From positions 10,540,001 to 10,604,000 of the forward strand of contig OZ024746.1 of assembly GCA_964016885.1 (NCBI GenBank): DNA of 64,000 bases, given 5' to 3'. The notes under the pieces were generated by a model. It made no database searches and was not told where the DNA came from. It saw nothing but the letters and a program-made list of their open reading frames with translations. A program made the position numbers and the translations under genes. Source of the stretch: Eledone cirrhosa. Lineage: Eukaryota. Position 1 is the stretch's first letter; each line of letters starts with the position of its first letter. This document shows, piece by piece, positions 14,694 through 63,951 of this stretch.

Positions 14694-15097
14694 CCTTTCT
14701 CTCCGGTCAACAACTGATTCTTTTTTTCAAATACCACTTTGGAAGAAGAATCAGAATGGAGAGAGAGGTGCTGTACCCCAGCAAGTTTTATGAAAGGTGG
14801 GTGAATGTGGCGAGAATGGCCCGAGTGAATGGGCCTTCTCTCTATATCAGCCTGTAGGTTGAGGAAAAGGAGGAGGAGAGGAGGGGAGTACAAACTCTTC
14901 GTACTCCTGGAGATGAGGGTTGCACATTTTTTTCGGGGGTATGTGTTACCCATATAAACTGTCTCCCCCTATTGGGAAAAATCGACTAACTTTTTAAATT
15001 GCATTTGTGATAACATTTTACACGTTTTTATTGTATGTAAACTTCCCCCTTTGTATTTGTCCCCTTCTTTTGTGCCCCTGTGGCTAATAAAGAAACA
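14694..15097 (+). mobile_element. L1/Tx1-like LINE 3' end
   Basis: Open frame ...LILFFKYHFGRRIRMEREVLYPSKFYERWVNVARMARV...*, then a 3' UTR, AATAAA near 15087 and a (TCTA)n tail. Confidence 0.45.
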
Positions 15098-15339
15098 TAT
15101 CTATCTATCTATCTATCTATCTATATGTATATTATCATTATCATCATTTCTACCCCTACTTGACTTTTACTCCCTTCTTCTGATTTTCTCGAAAAACTTT
15201 CTCTATGGAAATGAAAATACATAAAATAATTAAATAGAAAAAAAAAAAAAACGGAAAAGAAAAAAAAAATTAAATAGTAATGGAGGTGGGGGAGATAGCA
15301 GCAAACTCTACATCTTAGTCTATGTGGTATGTCTCAGTT

Positions 15340-15565
15340 GCATCCACGGAGAAAATGGTGAAACCATTTCTGAGGAGAACAGCCAGTGACACTCGCTGCA
15401 CCAGCCACACTACCTCACGGGTTTCATTCTGCAGACGCGGGATGCACTCATCATGAATTTGCAGAGGAAAACAGCACTTCAGGTAGACCGAGGACACACG
15501 AGGCCTCAATGGCGACCGACATGAAAAGTAAGTGGTTAGTCAGATCCCGGTATTTACTACAATTA
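15340..15565 (-). mobile_element. CRE-like LINE 3' fragment, copy 2
   Basis: SKYRDLTNHLLFMSVAIEASCVLG / REVVWLVQRVSLAVLLRNGFTIFS. Confidence 0.6.
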
Positions 15566-16027
15566 TCTCCCCTGTGTTATGTTATGGATGGGAGAACAGT
15601 ATAAGAGAAGTATTTTTGTCATTCTTTGCTCTAAATTATTTCAGTTGTGTGCGTACAGTTGTATATTAAGAAATGATAAAGTTGTTTTTTATATCTAGTT
15701 GTTTGTGTTGTTGGTTCCTGTTAGGGGGATGGGTGCTCAAATAGGGATTAGATGGTTGTATTTTCAGGGTGTTTGTAAAATTATAAGTAATAGATATTAT
15801 TGGGAAAGGTGCGGTCAAAGGAAATTTGCTTGTCTATTGATCGGCCAAGCGGGAATGTTTCGGCTGTGGAGAATTATAAGATATTTTTGGTTTACCTAAG
15901 TTACAGGATTTATGAGTTCGTCTGTGTGATACATACATATATGTACTTTCATTCAATTATACACACATAGCATAACACACATAGCATAACACACATAGCA
16001 TAACACACATAGCATAACACACATAGC

Positions 16028-16145
<118 letters not shown>

Positions 16146-16349
16146 CAGTTTCTAACAGATAATAATTCCATTATAATTTAGACATCAACTAGTTAAATAT
16201 GTACGTATGAGTGTGTGTGTGTATTTGTGTGTATGTATGTGTGTGCAGGTATAGGTGTATATGTATGTGTGGATTTGTATGTTTTGAGTTATATGTGTTC
16301 ATGTCCATATGTTTCTATATCTATACATGTATATATACAGTTATTACAA

Positions 16350-17060
16350 ACTTAATTTCTGAAATGTTTTACATATTTCTACAGTTTCATTAATTGTCTG
16401 TACTTGCAACTTCGTAACTAGCCGTGTCCTTTCTTATTCTCAAGATTTATTCTGAGGCAGTTACTAACATATCCCAGTGCCTCAATAATCACAGGTACAA
16501 ATCTAAAAGTATAGTCACAGTGGAGTATCTGCAGATTCCTCTTAGTTCAGCATAAATGTTCTCTTTTTTTGCTAATCTTTAGCATTGTATTGACATCTGC
16601 TGGGCAGCTAACTTCTTCCACTACTATGCATGCTTTCTTTTACCTGCCCCATATTATTATATCTGGTCTAATATACTTGTTTTTTATTAGAGTTTTTACT
16701 GGAACATTTCACCAGTACCCTTTCATATTATGTATGTGTGTCGTCCACATTGCTGTAACTTTTATACGTTTAAACTCATGGCTATCCTTTCTACGGATTT
16801 CATTATATAGTTTTTGGCCACTACATCATACCTCATAGGTAGATAGTACCGTAATGATATCTTTGGACAGCTGGTTATGACATTGGTGACATCTTCGATG
16901 TTAATTCCACAGAATCTTCATCTGTTGTCACATCTAAATATTTTGCCTGCATCTCTATCTCTTTTGTGAATGAGATATTTTGTAGATATTTCCTGTTCTT
17001 GGATTGCAAAAAAATATCCTTCAAAGTGAGAGTTAATATATCTAAGTCGGTGTTTTGGCT
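16350..17060 (-). mobile_element. Decayed copy of the same R4/Dong-like LINE
   Basis: Minus-strand EGYFFAIQEQEISTKYLIHKR matches EGYLYAIQEQELPTKYLLHKR of the 63 kb copy; the rest has many stops and frameshifts. Confidence 0.7.
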
Positions 17061-17094
17061 GTGCCCAGGGGACAAAACTGTAAAGGCATTTCAA

Positions 17095-17240
17095 CGGACA
17101 ATGGCCAGCAACATCTGTTGCAATAGCCACCCCAACTCACGGAGCTCCTTCCTCAGATGGCCTGCTGACATTACAATTTTACGGAAGAGCTCGGTTGTAG
17201 GGGATCCGGGGACGCCTGAGGTCTCGACAACGACCGAAAA
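17095..17240 (-). mobile_element. CRE-like LINE fragment, copy 3
   Basis: VVVETSGVPG...KELRELGWLLQQMLLA aligns to the other two fragments. Confidence 0.55.
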
Positions 17241-17529
17241 TATAGTTGACATAAAATAAAAAAAAATATTCTTATGATATTTTTATTTGAAAATTCTCTT
17301 TTCAGGACAATTTCAGCAGAGTTGGGTTTTTCATAGTAGTAAAACTCCTTTAATGAAAATTATAATTTTCTTCTACGACAAAAAAAAACCAATAGAGGCA
17401 GTGCAATTTTTTGCTGTAATGATTTTCTATAATTAATTCAAGACTTTAATCAGCTACTTTGATGCCAACAACTGCCACAAGGGAGCCAGCTATTTTCAGA
17501 AGTCAACTACTCCATTGAAGCGCGAAATA

Positions 17530-18117
17530 GCAGCAGCATCAGCAGTAGAAACAGCTACAGCAGCAGCAGCAGCAGCAGTAGAATTGCAGCAACAGTAGTT
17601 GTAGTAGTCGTAGTAGTAGTCGCAGCAGTTGCAGCAGCAGTAGCAATAATAGTAGCAGCAGCAGCAGCAGCAGCACCAACAGCGCGGTAGTAGCAGCACT
17701 AGTTGTAGTAGTAGTAGCAGCAGTAGTAGTAGTAGTAGTAGCAGCAGCAGTAGTAGTAGTAGCAGCAGCAGCAGCAGCAGCAGTAGTAGCAGCAGCAGCA
17801 GAAGTAGTAGCAGCAGCAGTAGTAGTAGTAGTAGTAGCAGCAGCAGTAGTAGTAGTAGTAGCAGCAGCAGCAGCAGCAGTAGTAGCAGCAGCAGAAGTAG
17901 TAGCAGCAGCAGTAGTAGTAGTAATAGTAGTAGCAGCAGTAGTAGTAGTAGTAGTAGCAGTAGTAGTAGCAGCAGCAGTAGTAGTAGTAGTAGCAGTAGT
18001 AGTAGTAGTAGCAGCAGCAGTAGTAGTAGTAGTAGCAGTAGTAGTAGCAGCAGCAGCAATAGTAGTAGTAGCAGCAGCACCAGCAGCAGCAGTAGCAGCA
18101 GCAGTAGTAGTAGTAGT

Positions 18118-18158
<41 letters not shown>

Positions 18159-18195
18159 TAGCAGCAACAGCAGTAATAGTAGCAGCAGCATTAGA

Positions 18196-18247
<52 letters not shown>

Positions 18248-18272
18248 ACAGCAGCAGCAGTAGTAGCAGTAG
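17530..18272. repeat. (CAG)n/(TAG)n compound microsatellite
   Basis: Direct inspection. Confidence 0.9.
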
Positions 18273-18475
18273 TGTGAAAAAGCACAACATGCAAAGTGAA
18301 GAGAACGCTGTTCCGGTGTAACGCCAGTCATTGATATCTGTCCGCCATTTAACTTCACAAATGGAAGAAGAAAAAAACTGATCGACTGGAGTCTGAAGGA
18401 AATATTGGGATATTTGATGCATGCTTGCTCGTATTGTTGGTCGTGATAGCATGTTGTCTCACTGCCCTCACCCAC

Positions 18476-18530
<55 letters not shown>

Positions 18531-18675
18531 ATAAAGAAGAAGCACGCAAACATACGCTCCCACACACATATACATGCACACAAGCTCACATATGTGTCCA
18601 TGTATATGTGTGAATATGCCTCCTTCTCTCTTTATATCCCTCTTCTTTCTCTCACACACACACTCTCTCTCTCTC

Positions 18676-18766
<91 letters not shown>

Positions 18767-18805
18767 GCGTTATGGTCCATCTGGTTCCTTACCACAACTC
18801 CTCCG

Positions 18806-18863
<58 letters not shown>

Positions 18864-19625
18864 GTATATATATATATATGTATATATATAGGAACCAGAT
18901 GAACCATAACGCACCAGAGTACTCAATACTTAGGGTAGTAGAGTGGGTAATAGGTGAAAGTATGACCCCGACGGCAGAGCTCAAACCGTTTCGATGGCTA
19001 TTACTAAAACAAAACAAAAAAACAAAAAAAAAGTACCATGAAAAAAAGTGCCCCCAAATGGGGAGAAATGAGGAAAATTGGGGAGATTTTACATTATGAA
19101 AGCTATACCCATTTTCACAAGAGAATACATCTCTGATCCACCCCAAAGTTGGTGGGAGATCTCCCTGTCCGACGGGGTGAGTTGACAGGTCTGTAGTTGA
19201 TATACATGCATAAATTCTAGAATTATTCTTGTTAATGTTGAACTTGCTTACTCTATCAGCCACAGATTTACAAACTTACCAGTAAGTCCACCAACTATTA
19301 ACTTAAAAATCAATATATTATTATTATTTTTTGTCAATTATTTTGTGTTAAATTTCTGTTTCGATGTAGTGGATGTGGCTTATCTTCCTTCCAAACTTGA
19401 TCTCAAGAGAGTTAGAAATGTTTGTGACAAGACGAGATTAAAACGACACTCGTGCTGTTATCTGCTAATATTGTGTTTTGAAGTTTATTCCAGTACGGCA
19501 ATCTGAAAATCTGTGTGGCTTCTACGCGAGGAAACTATTAGAATTTACCAGATTGGTTCTGGCCTATCAAATTAAAGTAATAAATTACTGCATCGTATTC
19601 TTTCCTATGCCTCTACTGCTAGCGT

Positions 19626-19666
<41 letters not shown>

Positions 19667-19816
19667 CATACATATATACAAACATACAAGCATACATACA
19701 TGCATATATTCATACATACATATATGCAAAAATACATACATGCATGTATATATTTATATGAACACACTTAAACATACATACATGTATGTATGTATGTATG
19801 TATGTATGTATACATG

Positions 19817-19856
<40 letters not shown>

Positions 19857-20479
19857 CTGGCGGCATACGTCTCTTGTGATTTGAACGCATATATGTATAT
19901 ATCTGTGTTTTTCTCTCTTTATTATATTATATTATACGGCTCGGAAAACTCTTTCCGGGAGGTATTTTAATTACAGGGGACTATTGTGAGTTTTTAAGTC
20001 AATATATACTCTTGATACACACACACACACGCGCATATATATATTTATATATTATGGTTATATATATATATATATATATATATAAATATTAATTGGTGGA
20101 TTTATCTGTATATATATATATATATATGTGGAAAATGTATATATATATATGTGTGGAAAATGTTCGGTTTGTTTACAAACAAACCGAACATTATAATAAA
20201 TGTTCGGTAAACCCATACGTTACACATATATATATATGTGTGCATGTATGTATATATATATACACACTACTGTACGTCTGTATATATATATATATATATA
20301 CGTATACATACTTATATTTAGGTATCAGCCGTACTAAGAGTGAGAAATGAAATTTCGTTTCATTCTTTTCCATTTATCGTTTTCGGTTGCCCAGCCGACT
20401 AACTCACTCGATATGTAAATTAGGCTGCTCAGCCGTTAATATGCATAAGGAAAGTATATACTTTCAAACGTTGAATCAT

Positions 20480-20548
20480 CTGACAGAAAGGTATACGATG
20501 CTGACGATAGCTAATAAGCTTGAAACTAGTACATCGTTCCTGTGTCAG
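20480..20548 (+). ncRNA. Type-I hammerhead ribozyme, canonical core
   Basis: ACGATG-CTGACGA-tAGCT(aata)AGCTt-GAAAC-TA-GTA-CATCGT. Stem I is extended by CTGACA/TGTCAG, stem III is the palindrome ACTAGT, predicted cut after 20531. Confidence 0.85.
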
Positions 20549-21673
20549 TGTTGAACAAAAGGGCGACGATGGTTGCCAAGCATTGTACGGCGTAATTCGG
20601 GCTGTTTGTTTACAAACAAACCGAACATTATAATAAATGTTCGGTAAACCCCTACGTACATATATATATATATGTGTGCATGTATGTATATATATATATA
20701 CATACTACTGTACGTCTGTACACATATATGTATGTACGTATACATACTTATATATATATATATATATGTATATATAGATAAATCTACCAAAATATACGGT
20801 AGTGTTCAATCCGTATGAAGAACTCAATGTAATCCAAATATCATGAACAGAGAAGATGTATTCAACATTTTTTCGATGAGAAACACAGGAAAACAGAGTC
20901 AAGATAAATAATAAAAATAATGAATAAAAACAAAGAAACAGTTCCTTATATTAAAAAATTCATCATTTTACGATCGTTTCTAGGATATATATGTGTGTGT
21001 TGGTATGTATATCATATAGATCTATGTAAACATTTTACAAACTATCAGAGGGAATATACATACCTACACATATATATGCTGTCTTCAGAAATAAATTTCT
21101 GAAGACAGCATATATATGTGTAGGTATGTATATTCCCTCTGATAGTTTGCTAATTTCGTGTAAATCAATCCGATATTAGCTTTTCGGTTAGCCGATATTG
21201 ATCAATAACGATCGGTGTAATCAGGATCACTTGAAATAGTATAGCTTGTCCAATATGATATTACCAGGTAGGTGTGTGACGGCGTGTTGGTACAGGTAGG
21301 AATTAGAAGGCAGTAGGTTAGAATTCCACCACATTCTGTAGAGTAACCTTACCCAAAGACCCGTCGGCGACATGAATTCTTGATTGTATTCTTTCAGTCA
21401 TTCCCCAAGATCCATGACCATAGGTGAGGGTTAGCACCAATACCGAATTTAAGATAGTAAATTTGACTTTTACACACGCCTCCCTTCTGATGACTGACGC
21501 TGAAGATGGCGCTTTACTGTACTAACTCCTGCAATTCTGACACATAATTCAGCCGCCTTTGTGTGTGTGTGTATGTGTGTGTGTGTGTGTGCGTACGTGC
21601 GCGTGTGTGTATGTCTGTGCGTATGTTTTACGAACGTATGTAAACGTATGTAAACAACCATGAAGGTATGCAC

Positions 21674-21739
<66 letters not shown>

Positions 21740-21966
21740 ATGTATGTGTGTGGTGTGTGTGTAACAGTATATATATATATATATATATATATATTCTTTT
21801 ACCTATTCCAGCTATCCGGCTGAGGCCAAGCTGGGGCTTCACACACACACACATATATATATATATATAAAATTACAAAATATGAGGAAATAATAGACAA
21901 AAATATACCTATTTTTTCTTCAAAGTCCCGATTGTAGTTTCGCCGATCCGTGTGCAACGATTTTTG

Positions 21967-22049
<83 letters not shown>

Positions 22050-22364
22050 GGAGGTGAGTTTTATTGTAGTACAATAAAGCAATGCAGATATCGGATAAGA
22101 AGCACTCTACAATTTGTAGGACTGGAGTATACATAATATATAAGAACAAAAGATGGTTAAAAGAGTTCCATGTATTTTATTATGCGCATTTCAAAAACAA
22201 ATATCATCATGCAATAATATTTGTGTTTTCATCAGATAAAACAGGAAGACATGATATGAAGGTTAAAAAACACTTGTGGATAGTGCAGTTTTAAATCAAC
22301 ATATAATGTTGATTTAAAACTGCACTATCCACAAGTGTTTTTTAACCTTCATATCATGTCTTCC

Positions 22365-22435
22365 TGTTTTATCTGATGAAAACACAAATATTATTGCATG
22401 ATGATATTTGTTTTTGAAATGCGCATAATAAAATA
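22365..22435 (+). ncRNA. Type-I hammerhead motif (mirrored on the minus strand in the same palindrome)
   Basis: TGTTTTAT-CTGATGA-long stem II (ACAAATAT...ATATTTGT)-GAAA-TGCGCA-TA-ATAAAATA; palindromic stem III. Confidence 0.75.
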
Positions 22436-22463
22436 CATGGAACTCTTTTAACCATCTTTTGTT

Positions 22464-22505
<42 letters not shown>

Positions 22506-22572
22506 TATATATATACTGTTACGCATACATACGTATATATATATATACATATATATATACATATATATATAT

Positions 22573-22610
<38 letters not shown>

Positions 22611-22650
22611 GTAAAAGAAACCAAAGAACGCTTACATACTCAAACAGTTT

Positions 22651-22708
22651 TTATTTGCTTACAATGTTTCATCCATACCATTGGGTAGGATTCATCAGAG
22701 CTTAATAA
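22651..22708 (-). ncRNA. Type-I hammerhead ribozyme
   Basis: Minus strand: GCT-CTGATGA-ATCCTACC(caat)GGTAtGGAT-GAAAC-ATT-GTA-AGC, inside a 370-bp insert between (TA)n tracts. Confidence 0.8.
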
Positions 22709-22974
22709 ACACATTGCTGAGTATAAGCTCTACCAAGCTTAGTCACACGAACAATCGGAATACAATAGAGGGCAAAGATAGGGAGAACGGAGATGGCGAA
22801 TAAGGAGATAGTACATGCTGGGGTTGTTAAGCACCACAGCTAAATGTTAGGGCACAACCATATTTTACAAGATACAGATACAATTGATGGCACACAAAAT
22901 AAAAAAATACAAACAATGGTTAAAAGATAATAAAAAAGTAATATAAAGAGATAAAAAGTGAATAAAAAGGTAGA

Positions 22975-23032
<58 letters not shown>

Positions 23033-23797
23033 CTAGGAATTGATCAACATATATATAAATAAATATAAACATGAAAAATCACAGGAGATAATACTGCTCC
23101 TTAATTGTAGAGCTAACTCTGTTGAAGGGAATTGACTGCTATTTCTAGTTGACGAATACCTATTCACGCCACTGAAACGAAGCCCCTGTGATGTGTAATA
23201 TCAACACGTGGTAGCGGCCAGTTTAAGATTTTGACTCGAAGTGTAAACATGGATCGCTTGATATTGTTCTTCCTTGTTGATAATCCAATAATATCCACTT
23301 TCCGTGACTTACCATCTGATTAATTGGTGAAATATATTTCTTTAAGGAAATATATACAGGGAAGATTAATCATTAAAAGGTATCTATTTTTGAAGTTCTA
23401 GTTAACTTTATTTATTTGTTACCTACTAGCCATGCGTGGTTACACGCTTGTAAAAATTATCTCCTGTGATTTTTCATGTTTATAATTATTTATATATATG
23501 TTGATCAATTCCTAGTTATTAAAATGCTCGTATTTACAAAGTCCTAGAGCTTATTTTCCGGGCGATATGGCGCATTCCGTTAAGGAATGACACCCATAAT
23601 TTCGATTCTGATTGAATTCTTTTAATCTATCTTAATTTTGGATATATATATATATATATATATACGTTATTCCGGGTTGAATCGGAGGTAACCACAGTAA
23701 GTAAGGTACTCAATACATTGCAGAGTATAAAAGTTTTAATATAGATGAGATTCTACAGGACTAGAACTGTTTCATTCTTTAGAAATCATCAGGAATC

Positions 23798-23834
23798 CTG
23801 ATGATTTCTAAAGAATGAAACAGTTCTAGTCCTG
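23798..23834 (+). ncRNA. Hammerhead core in a palindrome, with the 5' strand of stem I disrupted
   Basis: CTGATGA-tTTC(taaa)GAAt-GAAAC-AGTTC; mirrored on the minus strand from 23792. Confidence 0.5.
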
Positions 23835-23860
23835 TAGAATCTCATCTATATCTATATCTA

Positions 23861-23909
<49 letters not shown>

Positions 23910-23985
23910 GCGCATTCGTTCATGCTTGTTTACATACGTACGTTCGCAATACATACGCATCGACATACATGCGCGCGCACACACA

Positions 23986-24080
<95 letters not shown>

Positions 24081-24090
24081 GCACGCACAC

Positions 24091-24133
<43 letters not shown>

Positions 24134-24245
24134 CACACACACACACGTATATTTTTTTCGTTTGATTAATTCCCCGAAAAAGTCATAAGACTGTCTGTTG
24201 AATCGTTGAAGTTTCATCTCATCGGTAAAATATCTCACTCAGTTG

Positions 24246-24279
<34 letters not shown>

Positions 24280-24284
24280 CACAC

Positions 24285-24369
<85 letters not shown>

Positions 24370-24419
24370 TATATATATATATAGCAATAATTTCTATACT
24401 TTTCATCTATATATATATA

Positions 24420-24456
<37 letters not shown>

Positions 24457-24514
24457 GTGTATGTGTGTATATATATATATATGTGTGTGTATATATATAT
24501 ATATATGTGTGTTA

Positions 24515-24558
<44 letters not shown>

Positions 24559-24782
24559 AGATCAAAAGATGGTTAAAGGAGTTCCATATATTTTATTATG
24601 CGCATTTCAAAAACAAACATCATCAAGCAATAATATTTGTGTTTTCATCAGATAAAACAGGAGAACATGATATGAAGGCTAAAAAACACTTGTGGATAGT
24701 GCAGTTTTAAATCAACATATGATATGTTGATTTAAAACTGCACTATCAACAAGTGTTTTTTAGCCTTCATATCATGTTCTCC

Positions 24783-24853
24783 TGTTTTATCTGATGAAAA
24801 CACAAATATTATTGCTTGATGATGTTTGTTTTTGAAATGCGCATAATAAAATA
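24783..24853 (+). ncRNA. Type-I hammerhead motif, second copy of the 22.4 kb family (also mirrored)
   Basis: Same architecture as 22365-22435 with a few substitutions. Confidence 0.72.
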
Positions 24854-24974
24854 TATGGAACTCCTTTAACCATCTTTTGATCTTATATTATGCATACTCC
24901 AGTCCCACAAACTGTAGAGTGCTTCTTATCCGATATCTGCATTGCTTTATTGTACTACAATAAAACTCACCTCC

Positions 24975-25067
<93 letters not shown>

Positions 25068-25069
25068 TA

Positions 25070-25169
<100 letters not shown>

Positions 25170-25439
25170 ATAAATCTGAATTAGTGAAAAGGAAAGAAAG
25201 ATGGAGACAACAAATAAATAAGAACAGAGTAATAAAGAACAACAGAAAATAAAAAGTATTTTGTTGTTATAGCAACGCTGTGCTAGCCATTGCCGCAGTG
25301 TCATTATGACACAACTCTGCAACCAGCGGCTATTTTCTTTCCATTTATATACAATGTGTTATGTAACACCTCTCTTGTATTTAGTCCTTGTTTTACATTT
25401 CAACTAGATTTGGTCACTGTATATTTTACTGGTTACATT

Positions 25440-26250
25440 ATAATTGTTTCTACTTTAGGCACAAGGCCAGTAATTACCCAGTACATTACTGGTACTTTAT
25501 TTTATTGACCTCGTAAGGATGAAAGGCAAAGTTAACCTCGGCGGGATTTGAACTCAGACCGTAAAGGGACGTAACTATGCTAGAAAGCATGGCGTCCAGC
25601 CCTCTACCCATACTGCAATTCACCACCCTACATTATAATGGCGGCGTTACATACATGTCATTCAAATCACAGAATAGTTTGTATTTTATCTGCAGGTCGC
25701 AGCTGAGATATACCACCCAGACCGGGGTGTACAATCTGCCACATTTCCCTCCCTATTTTTTTTAAAATTTTACTTTCATTATTTAATATCTTTGGAGGGC
25801 GTTGGATTGGCAGAACCGGTAGAGCGTCTGACAACATGCCTTGTGGCATAGTGTTACGGCCCTTTACGATCTGAGTTCAAATCCCGCCGAGGTTAACTTT
25901 GCCTTTCATCCTGACGAGGTCGATAAAATAAAGTATCAGTCACGCGCTGGGGGGTCGATTTAATCGACTTTCCCCTCCCCCAAAATTGCTGGCCTTGTGC
26001 CTATATAAGAAGCCATTATTTAATATCTTTGGAGGGCGTTGGATTGGCAGAATCGGTAGAGCGTCTGCGAATATGCCTTGCGACATAGAGTTACGGCCTT
26101 TTACGTTCTGAGTTCAAATCCCGCCGAGGTTACCTTTGTCTTTCATCCTTACAGGATCTATAAAATAAAGTACCAGTAGCGCAGTGGGGTCGATTTAATC
26201 GAATTTCCCCTTCCCTTCAAATTGCTGTGCCTAAAGTAGAAATAATTATC
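25440..26250. mobile_element. Cluster of three family A SINEs (25440-25628 minus; 25795-26020 and 26033-26250 plus)
   Basis: A-box TGGCAGAAyCGG, B-box GAGTTCAAATCC and the shared body. Confidence 0.8.
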
Positions 26251-55620: not shown

Positions 55621-56917
55621 TCGTGTTAAAAAAAAACGAGCCAAGGTAATATTATAAGAAAAATAGATATGACGTGTTTTTGGATGTAATAAGTAAATAT
55701 TAATGGATAGTTTTTATTTTTCAGATTAATAACATTACATCATATAATAGTTTGACTCCCCGGAGAAAAGGAAAATTTCTTGATGAGAAAACAAAAAACA
55801 GAATTGCAGGATTAAGGCAGGCAAACTTGACTTACAAGGACATTTTTGATCTTCTAAAGAAAGAAAATCTTGAAACATCTCTGTCAACTGTGAAGCGAAT
55901 AGGTCTAAGATACGAAACAAAAGCTTCTGTATCAAGGAAATCGGGGTCTGGTCGCCCTAGAGATTCCACAGTGAAGAATGACCACAGGCTGAAAATGACT
56001 GGAAGAAAACCTTTGCTGATCACTCTAAACAATTTAAAACCGCAAATGGGAACTCACTTTCTAGAATTACAATATCTAGAGGAATGAAAGAAATGGGATT
56101 CACTTCAAAAAGATGTGCAAACAAACCCTTGCTAACCAAGAAGAACATCAATGATAGAAAGACATTTGCTTCCTATTATGACAAGAAAGATGCAGAGTGG
56201 TTTAGTAACGTTATCTGGTCTGATGAATCGCGATTTTGCCTTTCTAGTGATGCCCCCGAACACTGCATTAGAGGATCAGATGAAAGATTTCTGCCAAGTT
56301 GTATCAAAAGAATCGTGAAGCATGGGGACGGAGGAATAATGGTGTGGGGAGCCTTTACTGCTGCAGGTGTTGGCAAACTGATACGGTGTGATAAGTCAAT
56401 TAATGCAAAAGAGTACATTAAAATACTAGAAAAAGGGCTTCTGTCAAGTATTCAGCAGCTGGGAATATTACAAAACATATTTCAACAGGACAATGCTCCT
56501 GCACACACGGCTAAGATAACTAAAAAATGGTTGGTTGAATTGATGTAATGTTTTGGCCTTGCCAAAGCCCTGATTTAAATCCAATTGAGAATATTTGGGC
56601 TAGCATTATTTCTCGTTCATTATCAGGGAAAACTTTTCCGAATCAAGAAAAGCTATGGGAAGCAGTTCAGAATGAGTGGAATAACATCTCCTCATCACAG
56701 TGTTTGAAGTTGGTTGAGAGCATGCCTAAAAGAATTTCTTGTTTGAAAAAATTCAAAGGAAATTCTATTCCATACTAATGATGTGATGAAGTAAATGTCT
56801 TGTTCTAGTTATATTGTATCAGTTGATATGTTCCCAGTTCATTTATAACGCATATAATGTACCATTTCGTTCAATAAATGATGAAAGGTAGCTTGGCCCA
56901 TTTTTTTTTAACACGAT

Positions 56918-62819: not shown

Positions 62820-63720
62820 ATCTCTTTCTCTTAATTTCGAGTATATTTTTTTGACCGGCCACCTTCCTGGTGGCAAGGTTGTAAAAGAAAAGAAATTGTC
62901 ATCCCTTGAATCGCAAGAATGTTTTGCAAATTTTGAAGGTGCCAGCTATCGCAGCCATTTGTAGACTATGAATTAGGGAGCTGCGCTCTTTGTCCGCAAA
63001 TCCAAGTTCAGTCATACTTTGGTCCAAGCGGGTTGGTATATAACCCGTAGCTCCAATAATGATGGGTATGAAGCTAAAGGTGTATCTTGGATACTGGATT
63101 TGTAAACTCCTCATCAATGGTCCGCAGATGTCCTCCTTCTCCTGTATTTTTCTGACAACGTTTACATAAAGTGGGCAGCTGATCTCCACAACAGAACACG
63201 TTTTCAATGTGTTGTCCCAAACAACAATATCACGCTGGTTGTGCTTTAATTTGGTGGCAGTTTTTATTTTCAGGTTCCGCCAGTATTCCTTAGTGCCATC
63301 TGTCTCAATATATTCTTCCTCGTTTGTTGTTAATTTTGTTTTCCGAAGTGCGTTCCAGATGGTTCTAGCTATCCCATTGTGTCTCATGGGGAGGTAGTAG
63401 CGAGATGACATTCTTTCGCAGCTGGCAACTATGTGGCTTACATCCTCGATCTTTGTTTTACATAGCCTACATTTATTGTCAGCTGATGGCCCTCCCCTTT
63501 TGTGCAGCAGATATTTGGTAGGGAGTTCTTGTTCCTGTATTGCATAGAGATATCCCTCAAGGTGTGATGTCATAAACTTGTCGGAACTCCATGCCAGGCT
63601 TTTTGAGTGGTTTATCCCCTCTATGGTCTGTGTTTTACGTCTCAAGTATCCATGCACACCTTTTTCCACAGTCATGTTTCTGCGATTCTTTGTTGTTTTT
63701 TCTTGAATCATTTTATTAGT
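62820..63720 (-). mobile_element. 5'-truncated R4/Dong-like non-LTR retrotransposon (zinc knuckle and restriction-like endonuclease)
   Basis: ORF 62899-63711 has AIQEQE, C-x2-C-x8-H-x4-C (CRLC...SHIVASC), RHN, a degenerate PD motif (HNQRDIVVWD), VVEISCP and IPIIIGATG. The 3' UTR runs into (CATA)n. Confidence 0.8.
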
Positions 63721-63951
63721 TAGTAGGTGATCTATGCAACCCTACACCTCCCTCTTTCCACCAGCTTGCTCAGGTGTTATGATGTTGTTGGTAGCACAGT
63801 GATACTGTAAGAACAGGTTAAGGCACCCAGTATATAATTTATACATTTACTAAGAAAACAGTATATAATTTATACATGTATGTATGTATGTATGTATGTA
63901 TGTATGTATGTATGTATGTATGTATGTATGTATGTATGTATGTATGTATGT

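What the first reader, a model, noticed from the sequence alone, without database searches (positions are those of the whole stretch)
20480..20548. Textbook hammerhead with extended stem I, the best candidate for activity
Intact core (CUGACGA, GAAAC, GUA), 6-bp stem I continuing past an internal loop into CUGACA/UGUCAG, a 4-nt stem II loop that could make the tertiary contact, and a self-complementary stem III (ACUAGU) that suggests dimer-dependent cleavage.
Basis: partly seen in the sequence, partly recalled or inferred. Interest (0 to 1): 0.7.

Follow-up and report, generated by a model that had tools for sequence, protein, structure and literature searches.

The report
Weakened hammerhead in abundant retrozyme family
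This is a real self-cutting-type RNA motif (hammerhead ribozyme), but it is one of over twelve thousand near-identical copies in a small non-coding jumping element of a known kind, and it is predicted to cut well only when paired with a second copy, which this locus lacks.

Summary
The type I hammerhead at 20480-20548 is real. Its helices covary across three repeat families of this genome, and the predicted cut after 20531 is right. It is not textbook. The first pair of stem II is U·U, not G-C. Comparison favours a 6-nt loop over a 4-nt one. Stem III forms only between two ribozymes, and in a monomer the core is predicted to mispair with it. The motif sits in a ~430-bp non-coding unit, here 1.35 copies with one ribozyme. 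The genome holds 12,460 exact matches to its core pattern. This is a new family of the known animal non-LTR retrozymes; axolotl Amex2 is a tested U·U precedent. Copies end at two fixed points about 50 nt apart in (TA)n, and back-to-back arms use one of each (27 of 29 classifiable pairs), as do Penelope-like elements with reverse-transcriptase ORFs here. That supports Penelope mobilisation, already argued in a 2026 preprint. The scan noted the same layout earlier on sister families in this genome. Cleavage and expression are untested. Ordinary class, modest interest.

The parts
20480..20548 (+). Type I hammerhead ribozyme motif with extended stem I
   Evidence: Sequence; fold; covariation; 13 of 40 family 69-mers from L002-L030 (L028 dropped as an overlap) are identical to it
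20501..20507 (+). Core C3-A9 (N7 = C)
   Evidence: Sequence; invariant except N7 in alignment A1
20508..20521 (+). Stem II: U10.1·U11.1 mismatch, 3 Watson-Crick pairs, 6-nt loop 20512-20517 (its ends could form a further U-A pair)
   Evidence: inner three pairs covary; 10.1/11.1 not a standard pair in 7 of 9 rows; purine at 10.1 in 83 of 12,460 genome matches, none of them G-C
20522..20531 (+). G12-A13-A14, stem III palindrome (20525-20530) and A17; predicted scissile bond 20531/20532
   Evidence: Sequence; palindrome centre covaries
20489..20500 (+). Stem I 5' strand: 3-bp distal helix, 3-nt bulge (20492-20494), 6-bp proximal helix
   Evidence: 5 of 6 proximal pairs change on both sides
20532..20541 (+). 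Stem I 3' strand with unpaired U1.7 at 20538, the likely partner of the last A of loop II
   Evidence: U1.7 and the last loop A are invariant in 9 of 9 rows; contact described in PMC11875169 passages; the contact itself was not tested
20167..20603 (+). One full repeat unit (437 bp here, 429 bp in tandem loci L002 and L027), non-coding, 35% G+C
   Evidence: Direct repeat spacing 437 (D14); no ORF of 120 aa or more over it; the 4 shorter frames over it that were scanned have no Pfam hit
20604..20756 (+). Partial second unit ending at the family's 3' end A, followed by a (TA)n run to about 20776
   Evidence: 92% identical to 20167-20320; end class A
20317..20372 (+). Internal copy of the ~55-nt 'tail' that is kept at end B in other insertions
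20159..20167 (.). About 9-nt inverted piece at the 5' junction (fold-back onto 20184-20192)
   Evidence: Read by eye; not tested further

Best explanation
The motif is a type I hammerhead carried by a young, dispersed copy of a ~430-bp non-coding repeat of the animal non-LTR retrozyme kind; it is predicted to cut efficiently only as a two-ribozyme dimer, and the family is likely copied into the genome by a Penelope-like reverse transcriptase. Shown: the motif, its covariation, the unit, at least 12,460 copies, tandem and back-to-back arrangements, and two fixed 3' ends in (TA)n. Inferred steps: (1) tandem loci are transcribed. (2) Two ribozymes in one transcript pair through the 6-nt palindromes, which frees the core, and cut out a unit-length RNA. 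(3) A host ligase closes it into a circle, in which the lone ribozyme is likely held off by the U·U base of stem II and by core mispairing. (4) A GIY-YIG/RT protein nicks (TA)n and primes cDNA at two sites about 50 nt apart, giving 5'-truncated, more-than-unit and inverted copies. This locus has one ribozyme and is most likely a passive offspring copy that would cut poorly, if at all, unless it met another transcript.
For: Copy number and youth: the 40 best hits are 96-100% identical, of 3,175 candidates; 12,460 pattern matches, control 0. Covariation: 95% of cells paired, 10 of 16 pairs change on both sides, slid controls 33-50% paired. Dimer: the palindrome centre covaries, and a third palindrome occurs in the 3' UTR ribozyme of a Penelope-like family. 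Monomer ensemble: core C3/U4/G5 paired to 20529/20528/20527 with P 0.88/0.88/0.70; family B behaves alike, family C much less. Unit folded as a circle: z -6.8 and -9.2 against 40 shuffles each. Ends: 136 of 189 3' ends in 85 loci fall in two classes; 72 of 78 A ends and 52 of 58 B ends meet a TA run; 27 of 29 classifiable back-to-back pairs are A+B (binomial p 5e-7). Families B and C, and two Penelope-like families with RT and GIY-YIG ORFs, show the same two-end pattern. Precedent: axolotl Amex2 (U·U) and Amex1 (1-bp helix III, palindromic loop) cleave 22% and 6% in 1 h as monomers and much better as dimers (PMC7229834).
Against: No cleavage or expression data. Only 1 of 9 predicted Xenopus retrozyme dimers cleaved in vitro (bioRxiv 10.64898/2026.07.22.740005). 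The double-hammerhead fold (-37.6 kcal/mol) is only level with two misfolded monomers (2 x -18.6) and above the best inactive duplex (-40.6) (the model has no tertiary contacts or Mg2+). 5' junctions do not pile up at the cut site (55 matches against 48 at a control position), so the DNA holds no clear footprint of cleavage. Core positions of inserted copies change as often as the rest (11 of 560 against 1.7%). No partner was found: no convincing homology to the 3' UTRs of 7 Penelope-like loci, and no consistent Penelope ORF beside copies (hits in 7 of 90 loci, from three families and at varied places). The 9 aligned rows come from only 3 families. The low circle energy owes much to the TA-rich hairpin. 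20 of 49 back-to-back pairs had an unclassified end.
Confidence: 0.8

Rival explanations
1. The family's ribozyme has lost activity. The U·U (or C·A) base of stem II is decay in a master copy, and the element spreads as uncleaved multimeric RNA that Penelope machinery copies regardless.
For: No pile-up of 5' ends at the cut. Subfamily A2 has C·A and a GUU triplet (895 matches). Canonical sister family B shows the likely ancestral G-C. 8 of 9 Xenopus dimers were inactive. Craig et al. note that ribozyme-less Naiads proliferate well.
Against: U·U recurs in family C, in the 23792 family and in a Penelope-like 3' UTR ribozyme while the inner pairs covary. The core is invariant across families that are about 61% identical or unalignable. 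Amex2 with U·U is active.
Confidence: 0.12
2. The ribozyme is an efficient monomer: tertiary contacts rescue the weak stems, and this locus cuts any transcript that passes through it.
For: U1.7, the 3-nt bulge and the loop II sequence are conserved. Coral and mussel retrozymes cleave as monomers (0.8 and 0.1 per min).
Against: Those are described as having a more stable helix III. Here there is at most one pair plus a palindromic loop, a U·U mismatch and predicted core mispairing.
Confidence: 0.06
3. The unit is the pseudo-LTR left behind by 5'-truncated insertions of an autonomous Penelope-like element, not a self-contained retrozyme.
For: Penelope-type ends and inversions. Xenopus retrozymes are homologous to pLTRs.
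Against: Copies run on into the next unit as a closed 429-bp permutation, up to five in tandem among the first 100 listed. No ORF is consistently upstream. The ribozyme has the full architecture, not the minimal form typical of Penelope elements (PMC4209133). Only 45 GIY-YIG loci of 10,596 candidates were looked at, so an ancestral link is not excluded.
Confidence: 0.07

Closest known systems
Animal non-LTR retrozymes (coral, mussel, axolotl; Cervera and de la Pena 2020, PMC7229834; parts 2-4 of 6 read, supplement not readable)
   Same: 150-450-bp non-coding tandem unit, G+C under 50%, one type I hammerhead per unit, thousands of copies, co-existing Penelope-like elements
   Different: Mostly dispersed 1-2-unit, 5'-truncated and inverted copies (22 of the first 100 listed ribozymes have a same-strand neighbour). 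Fixed paired 3' ends in (TA)n. Circular RNA not shown here.
Axolotl HHR_Amex2 and HHR_Amex1 (same paper)
   Same: U·U at the base of helix II (Amex2); single-pair helix III with a palindromic tetraloop (Amex1); dimer dependence
   Different: This ribozyme combines both weakening features in one motif; it has not been assayed
Penelope-like element insertions (Craig et al. 2021, PMC8557442; section 6 and passages read)
   Same: 5' truncation, partial tandems, inverted 5'-truncated copy, tail at one end only, (TA)n targets
   Different: No ORF; tail about 48-55 nt rather than 30-40; full rather than minimal hammerhead; no partner element identified
Li, Clavereau and Pollet 2026, bioRxiv 10.64898/2026.07.22.740005 (parts 1-3 of 5 read; supplements closed)
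   Same: Argues that animal retrozymes are non-autonomous Penelope derivatives and treats monomers as offspring that cannot transpose
   Different: Its evidence is co-occurrence and pLTR homology, mainly in vertebrates. A term search of the text found no 'tail', no mollusc, and 'inverted' only in a reference title, so insertion ends appear not to have been analysed; supplements could bear on this.

Membership tests
Type I hammerhead ribozyme | Conserved core C3 U4 G5 A6 N7 G8 A9, G12 A13 A14, A15.1-U16.1, H17 | tested here: met
   H17 = A
Type I hammerhead ribozyme | 6-bp helix I open to both ends, with a bulge and a distal helix | tested here: met
   5 of 6 pairs change on both sides, 100% of cells paired
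Canonical ('textbook') type I hammerhead | G10.1-C11.1 closing a 4-bp helix II (PMC4209133) | tested here: not met
   U·U; 96 of the first 100 listed matches are U·U; none of the 83 purine-10.1 matches is G-C. An active U·U variant is known (Amex2), so this lowers 'canonical', not 'hammerhead'.
Type I hammerhead ribozyme | Helix III that can form in a monomer | tested here: not met
   2-nt loop; P(A15.1-U16.1) = 0.0. The dimer form is supported by palindrome covariation.
Type I hammerhead ribozyme | Loop II - stem I tertiary contact (U1.7 with the last A of loop II) | tested here: inconclusive
   Both bases invariant in 9 of 9 rows from 3 families; the contact itself cannot be observed
Rfam hammerhead families | Match at the gathering score | tested here: not met
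Type I hammerhead ribozyme | Mg2+-dependent site-specific self-cleavage | not testable with these tools
   Needs a bench assay
Animal non-LTR retrozyme | 150-450-bp tandem unit, G+C under 50%, one type I hammerhead per unit, no ORF | tested here: met
   429-437 bp, 35-37% G+C; tandems; no ORF
Animal non-LTR retrozyme | 'Active' locus = at least two consecutive ribozyme units (Li et al.) | tested here: not met
   One ribozyme at this locus; the family meets it at other loci (22 of 100 listed)
Animal non-LTR retrozyme | Expressed as linear and circular unit RNA | not testable with these tools
   Only contigs of runs not on record as RNA were available
Animal non-LTR retrozyme | No LTR, primer-binding site or polypurine tract; long target-site duplication when present | not tested
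   Primer-binding site and polypurine tract were not searched; both flanks are TA-rich, so a duplication could not be read
Penelope-mobilised element | 5' truncation, inverted arm, tail at one end only, (TA)n target | tested here: met
Penelope-mobilised element | Sequence shared with the pLTR or 3' end of an autonomous partner | tested here: inconclusive
   None found in 45 GIY-YIG loci, out of 10,596 candidates

The most novel reading that the evidence does not exclude
The U·U base of stem II and a stem III palindrome that sequesters the core form a selected 'dimer-only' switch, reused across retrozyme families and a Penelope-like element in this genome, that keeps the RNA circle intact. A Neptune-type RT/GIY-YIG protein then copies that circle from both nicked strands of a (TA)n target at two fixed sites about 50 nt apart. 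The insertion ends would be direct mechanistic evidence that Penelope enzymes mobilise animal retrozymes in trans without shared sequence.
Probability: 0.35. Interest if true: 0.55.

Novelty: new member of a known kind. Interest (0 to 1): 0.33.

Why it matters
The single motif matters little: it is one neutral-looking copy among more than 12,000. The family is useful as a test bed. Natural G-C (family B), U·U (families A1 and C) and C·A (A2) versions of one scaffold allow a direct test of whether weak hammerheads are tuned or decayed. The paired insertion ends give a mechanistic handle on which enzyme copies animal retrozymes, a link the papers read here support only by co-occurrence and homology.

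Tried and rejected
Rfam scans found no hammerhead model; the weak miRNA-like hits lie on TA-rich hairpins, far below their gathering scores. No RNA holder was listed for 20320-20650. Laying two of the four listed runs gave contigs only, which show variants but no ends or expression. Pile-up of 5' junctions at the cut site: 55 matches against 48 at a control 6 nt upstream; 21 of the 30 fetched were true junctions and 9 were internal changes. The two patterns differ in capture (the control admits one more subfamily), so a small excess is possible but there is no peak. Selection for a repaired 10.1-11.1 pair: rejected (83 of 12,460). A-to-G editing scars, a lead from earlier scan notes: no significant strand bias (17 against 12, p 0.46; 36 against 22, p 0.15). 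Partner search: blastn and local alignment against Penelope-like UTRs, and tblastn of 7 ORFs against 90 family loci plus window 15001-26000, gave nothing consistent. Host-gene context: 1 of 69 short frames between 5,500 and 36,400 had a Pfam hit, below cut-off (C2H2 finger, 12297-12467), so gene context is unresolved. The first end count (15 A+B, 4 B+B) misclassified three internal continuations and was replaced; there, 16 'other' ends at one offset are probably self-matches of the TA-rich palindrome. Lunse et al. (dimeric Penelope hammerheads) was not held; I saw only its citation and a summary in the review PMC6765202 (passages). Paper searches: 'hammerhead ribozyme' + octopus and retrozyme + cephalopod listed no description of this family; hammerhead + G10.1 + C11.1 + mismatch gave 0 papers.

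Full report
1. Observation. The sequence at 20480-20548 holds a type I hammerhead: core at 20501-20507 and 20522-20525, triplet GUA at 20529-20531, 6-bp stem I, a 3-by-1 internal loop and two distal helices. The core pattern occurs 5 times in the window against 0.21 expected. The first pair of stem II (10.1/11.1; 20508/20521) is U·U. The loop is better read as six bases. Stem III cannot close in a monomer. Rfam gives no hammerhead match.

2. Surroundings. The motif lies in a 437-bp unit (20167-20603) followed by a 153-bp partial repeat that ends in a TA run: 1.35 units and one ribozyme. There is no ORF of 120 aa over it. The genome is a 3.0-Gb assembly with an animal-like repeat landscape; that it is an octopod is my recalled impression and comes from no call. 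A DNA search gave 3,175 candidates, the best 40 at 96-100% identity. A 30-nt core pattern with three free positions matches 12,460 times, control 0; this is a lower bound. Of the first 100 listed, 96 have U·U, 22 have a same-strand neighbour within 520 bp and 14 stand in an inverted pair. A second subfamily, mostly 80-90% identical to the window unit, has mainly C·A at 10.1/11.1 and a GUU triplet (895 matches). Only 83 of the 12,460 have a purine at 10.1 and none of these is G-C, so the family amplified with the mismatch.

3. Comparative structure. Two more tandem families turned up. Family B has a ~463-bp unit about 61% identical to ours along its length, with canonical G10.1-C11.1 and GUC. 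Family C has a 310-bp unit, also with U·U (4,823 pattern matches, 89 of the first 100 listed being C by my reading). On 9 rows from these three families, 95% of cells pair, 10 of 16 pairs change on both sides, and slid controls pair at 33-50%; rows are related, so this amounts to about three independent events. The 10.1/11.1 position is not a standard pair in 7 of 9 rows. The loop-closing U-A never varies. U1.7 and the last loop A, the contact described for natural hammerheads (PMC11875169, passages), are invariant. The centre of the stem III palindrome changes on both sides (U-A in 6 rows, G-C in 3), as expected only for pairing between two ribozymes.

4. Predicted activity. In the monomer ensemble the core C3-U4-G5 pairs with the palindrome (P 0.88, 0.88, 0.70), and A15.1-U16.1 has P 0.0. 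The double hammerhead scores -37.6 kcal/mol against -37.2 for two monomers and -40.6 for the best inactive duplex (no tertiary or Mg2+ terms). Family B shows the same mispairing, family C much less. The nearest tested cases are axolotl Amex1 (1-bp helix III with palindromic loop, 6% in 1 h) and Amex2 (U·U, 22%), both efficient as dimers (PMC7229834). This motif has both weaknesses and no partner in cis. In a 2026 preprint only 1 of 9 Xenopus dimers cleaved. Among the 15 core-like motifs of the window, 23792(-) has a stem III that can close in a monomer, so 'best candidate' is not established.

5. How copies were made. In 85 loci (90 fetched, 5 overlaps dropped; chosen by similarity or pattern, not at random), 136 of 189 3' ends fall at two points: about 217 nt past the cut (A, 78 ends) and about 50 nt further (B, 58 ends). 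72 of 78 A ends and 52 of 58 B ends meet a TA run, against 12 of 53 others. Of 49 back-to-back pairs, 29 had both ends classed, and 27 of these were A+B (p 5e-7). Families B and C have their own two ends, about 69 and 25 nt apart. [quoted passage not shown] Two such families show the same short and long ends in (TA)n, one of each in inverted pairs L091 and L101 (read by eye). One of them carries a 3' UTR hammerhead with U·U at the base of stem II and a palindromic stem III. The label Neptune-type rests on the finger motif and the target (PMC8557442), not on a tree; Nematis has the same motif. Copies end far from the cut and read through it, and 5' junctions do not pile up there. The template was therefore a ligated circle or an uncut multimer; these data cannot tell which. 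No partner sharing sequence with this family was found.

6. Comparison and novelty. The element meets the sequence-level definition of animal non-LTR retrozymes (PMC7229834, parts 2-4 of 6; review PMC7761336, passages; PMC4209133, parts 1-2 of 4). It fails the canonical G10.1-C11.1 test and, at this locus, the two-ribozyme criterion of Li et al. The Penelope link was proposed in 2020 and argued from co-occurrence and homology in 2026. I found no paper on this family; supplements of the 2020 paper and of the preprint could not be seen and may list it. After forming this reading I looked up earlier scan notes. Several describe the same two-armed, two-ended layout for 310-, 466- and 478-bp families of this genome; these are unchecked notes and not independent support. 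Their RNA-editing lead was tested on this family and not found. Inserted copies change at core positions as often as elsewhere (11 of 560 against 1.7%; rows selected for closeness to the window copy), as expected for passive copies.

7. Verdict. A real but non-canonical, likely dimer-dependent hammerhead in a solo copy of a large new family of a known element class. Interest 0.33.

Noticed in passing
window 2231(+), 5765(-)/6673(+), 22235(-)/22373(+), 22698(-), 23792(-)/23798(+), 24651(-)/24791(+), 31477(-)/31621(+), 47640(-): Further hammerhead-like cores, five of them as back-to-back inverted pairs, several with palindromic stem III; probably ends of other Penelope-type elements. 2231 is a minimal type with an extra base after A9.
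   Followed up: partly
window 23792(-); also L104, L034: A family with U·U at the base of stem II but a 4-bp stem III and 8-nt loop that can close in a monomer; a better monomer candidate than 20480.
   Followed up: partly
window 22136-22472: Perfect 167-bp inverted repeat with a 3-nt spacer, one hammerhead-like core per arm, flanked by TA runs.
   Followed up: no
L106-L125, L139-L140 (e.g. G000:C3:267526319-267532522): Very young ~463-bp retrozyme family with a fully canonical hammerhead, in two-armed tandem arrays.
   Followed up: partly
L126-L137, L143-L145 (e.g. G000:C1:36482102-36490613): 310-bp retrozyme family in long arrays (27 units on one arm in the listing) with U·U at the base of stem II.
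   Followed up: partly
L086:3009-5822(-), L087:2488-5019(+), L088:1775-5062(+): Long open Penelope-like RT/GIY-YIG frames; no standard hammerhead was found by my scan in the 3' UTRs of these loci.
   Followed up: partly
window 7272-8336, 26938-29641, 39034-40442: Homogeneous minisatellites of 32, 50 and 52 bp at 96-97% identity.
   Followed up: no
window 55982-56545(+), 62902-63741(-), 12297-12467(+): Tc1-type transposase fragment, zf-RVT (LINE-like) fragment and a below-cut-off C2H2 finger match.
   Followed up: no
window 21043-21144: Long inverted repeat centred near 21093 just downstream of the element, seen by eye.
   Followed up: no
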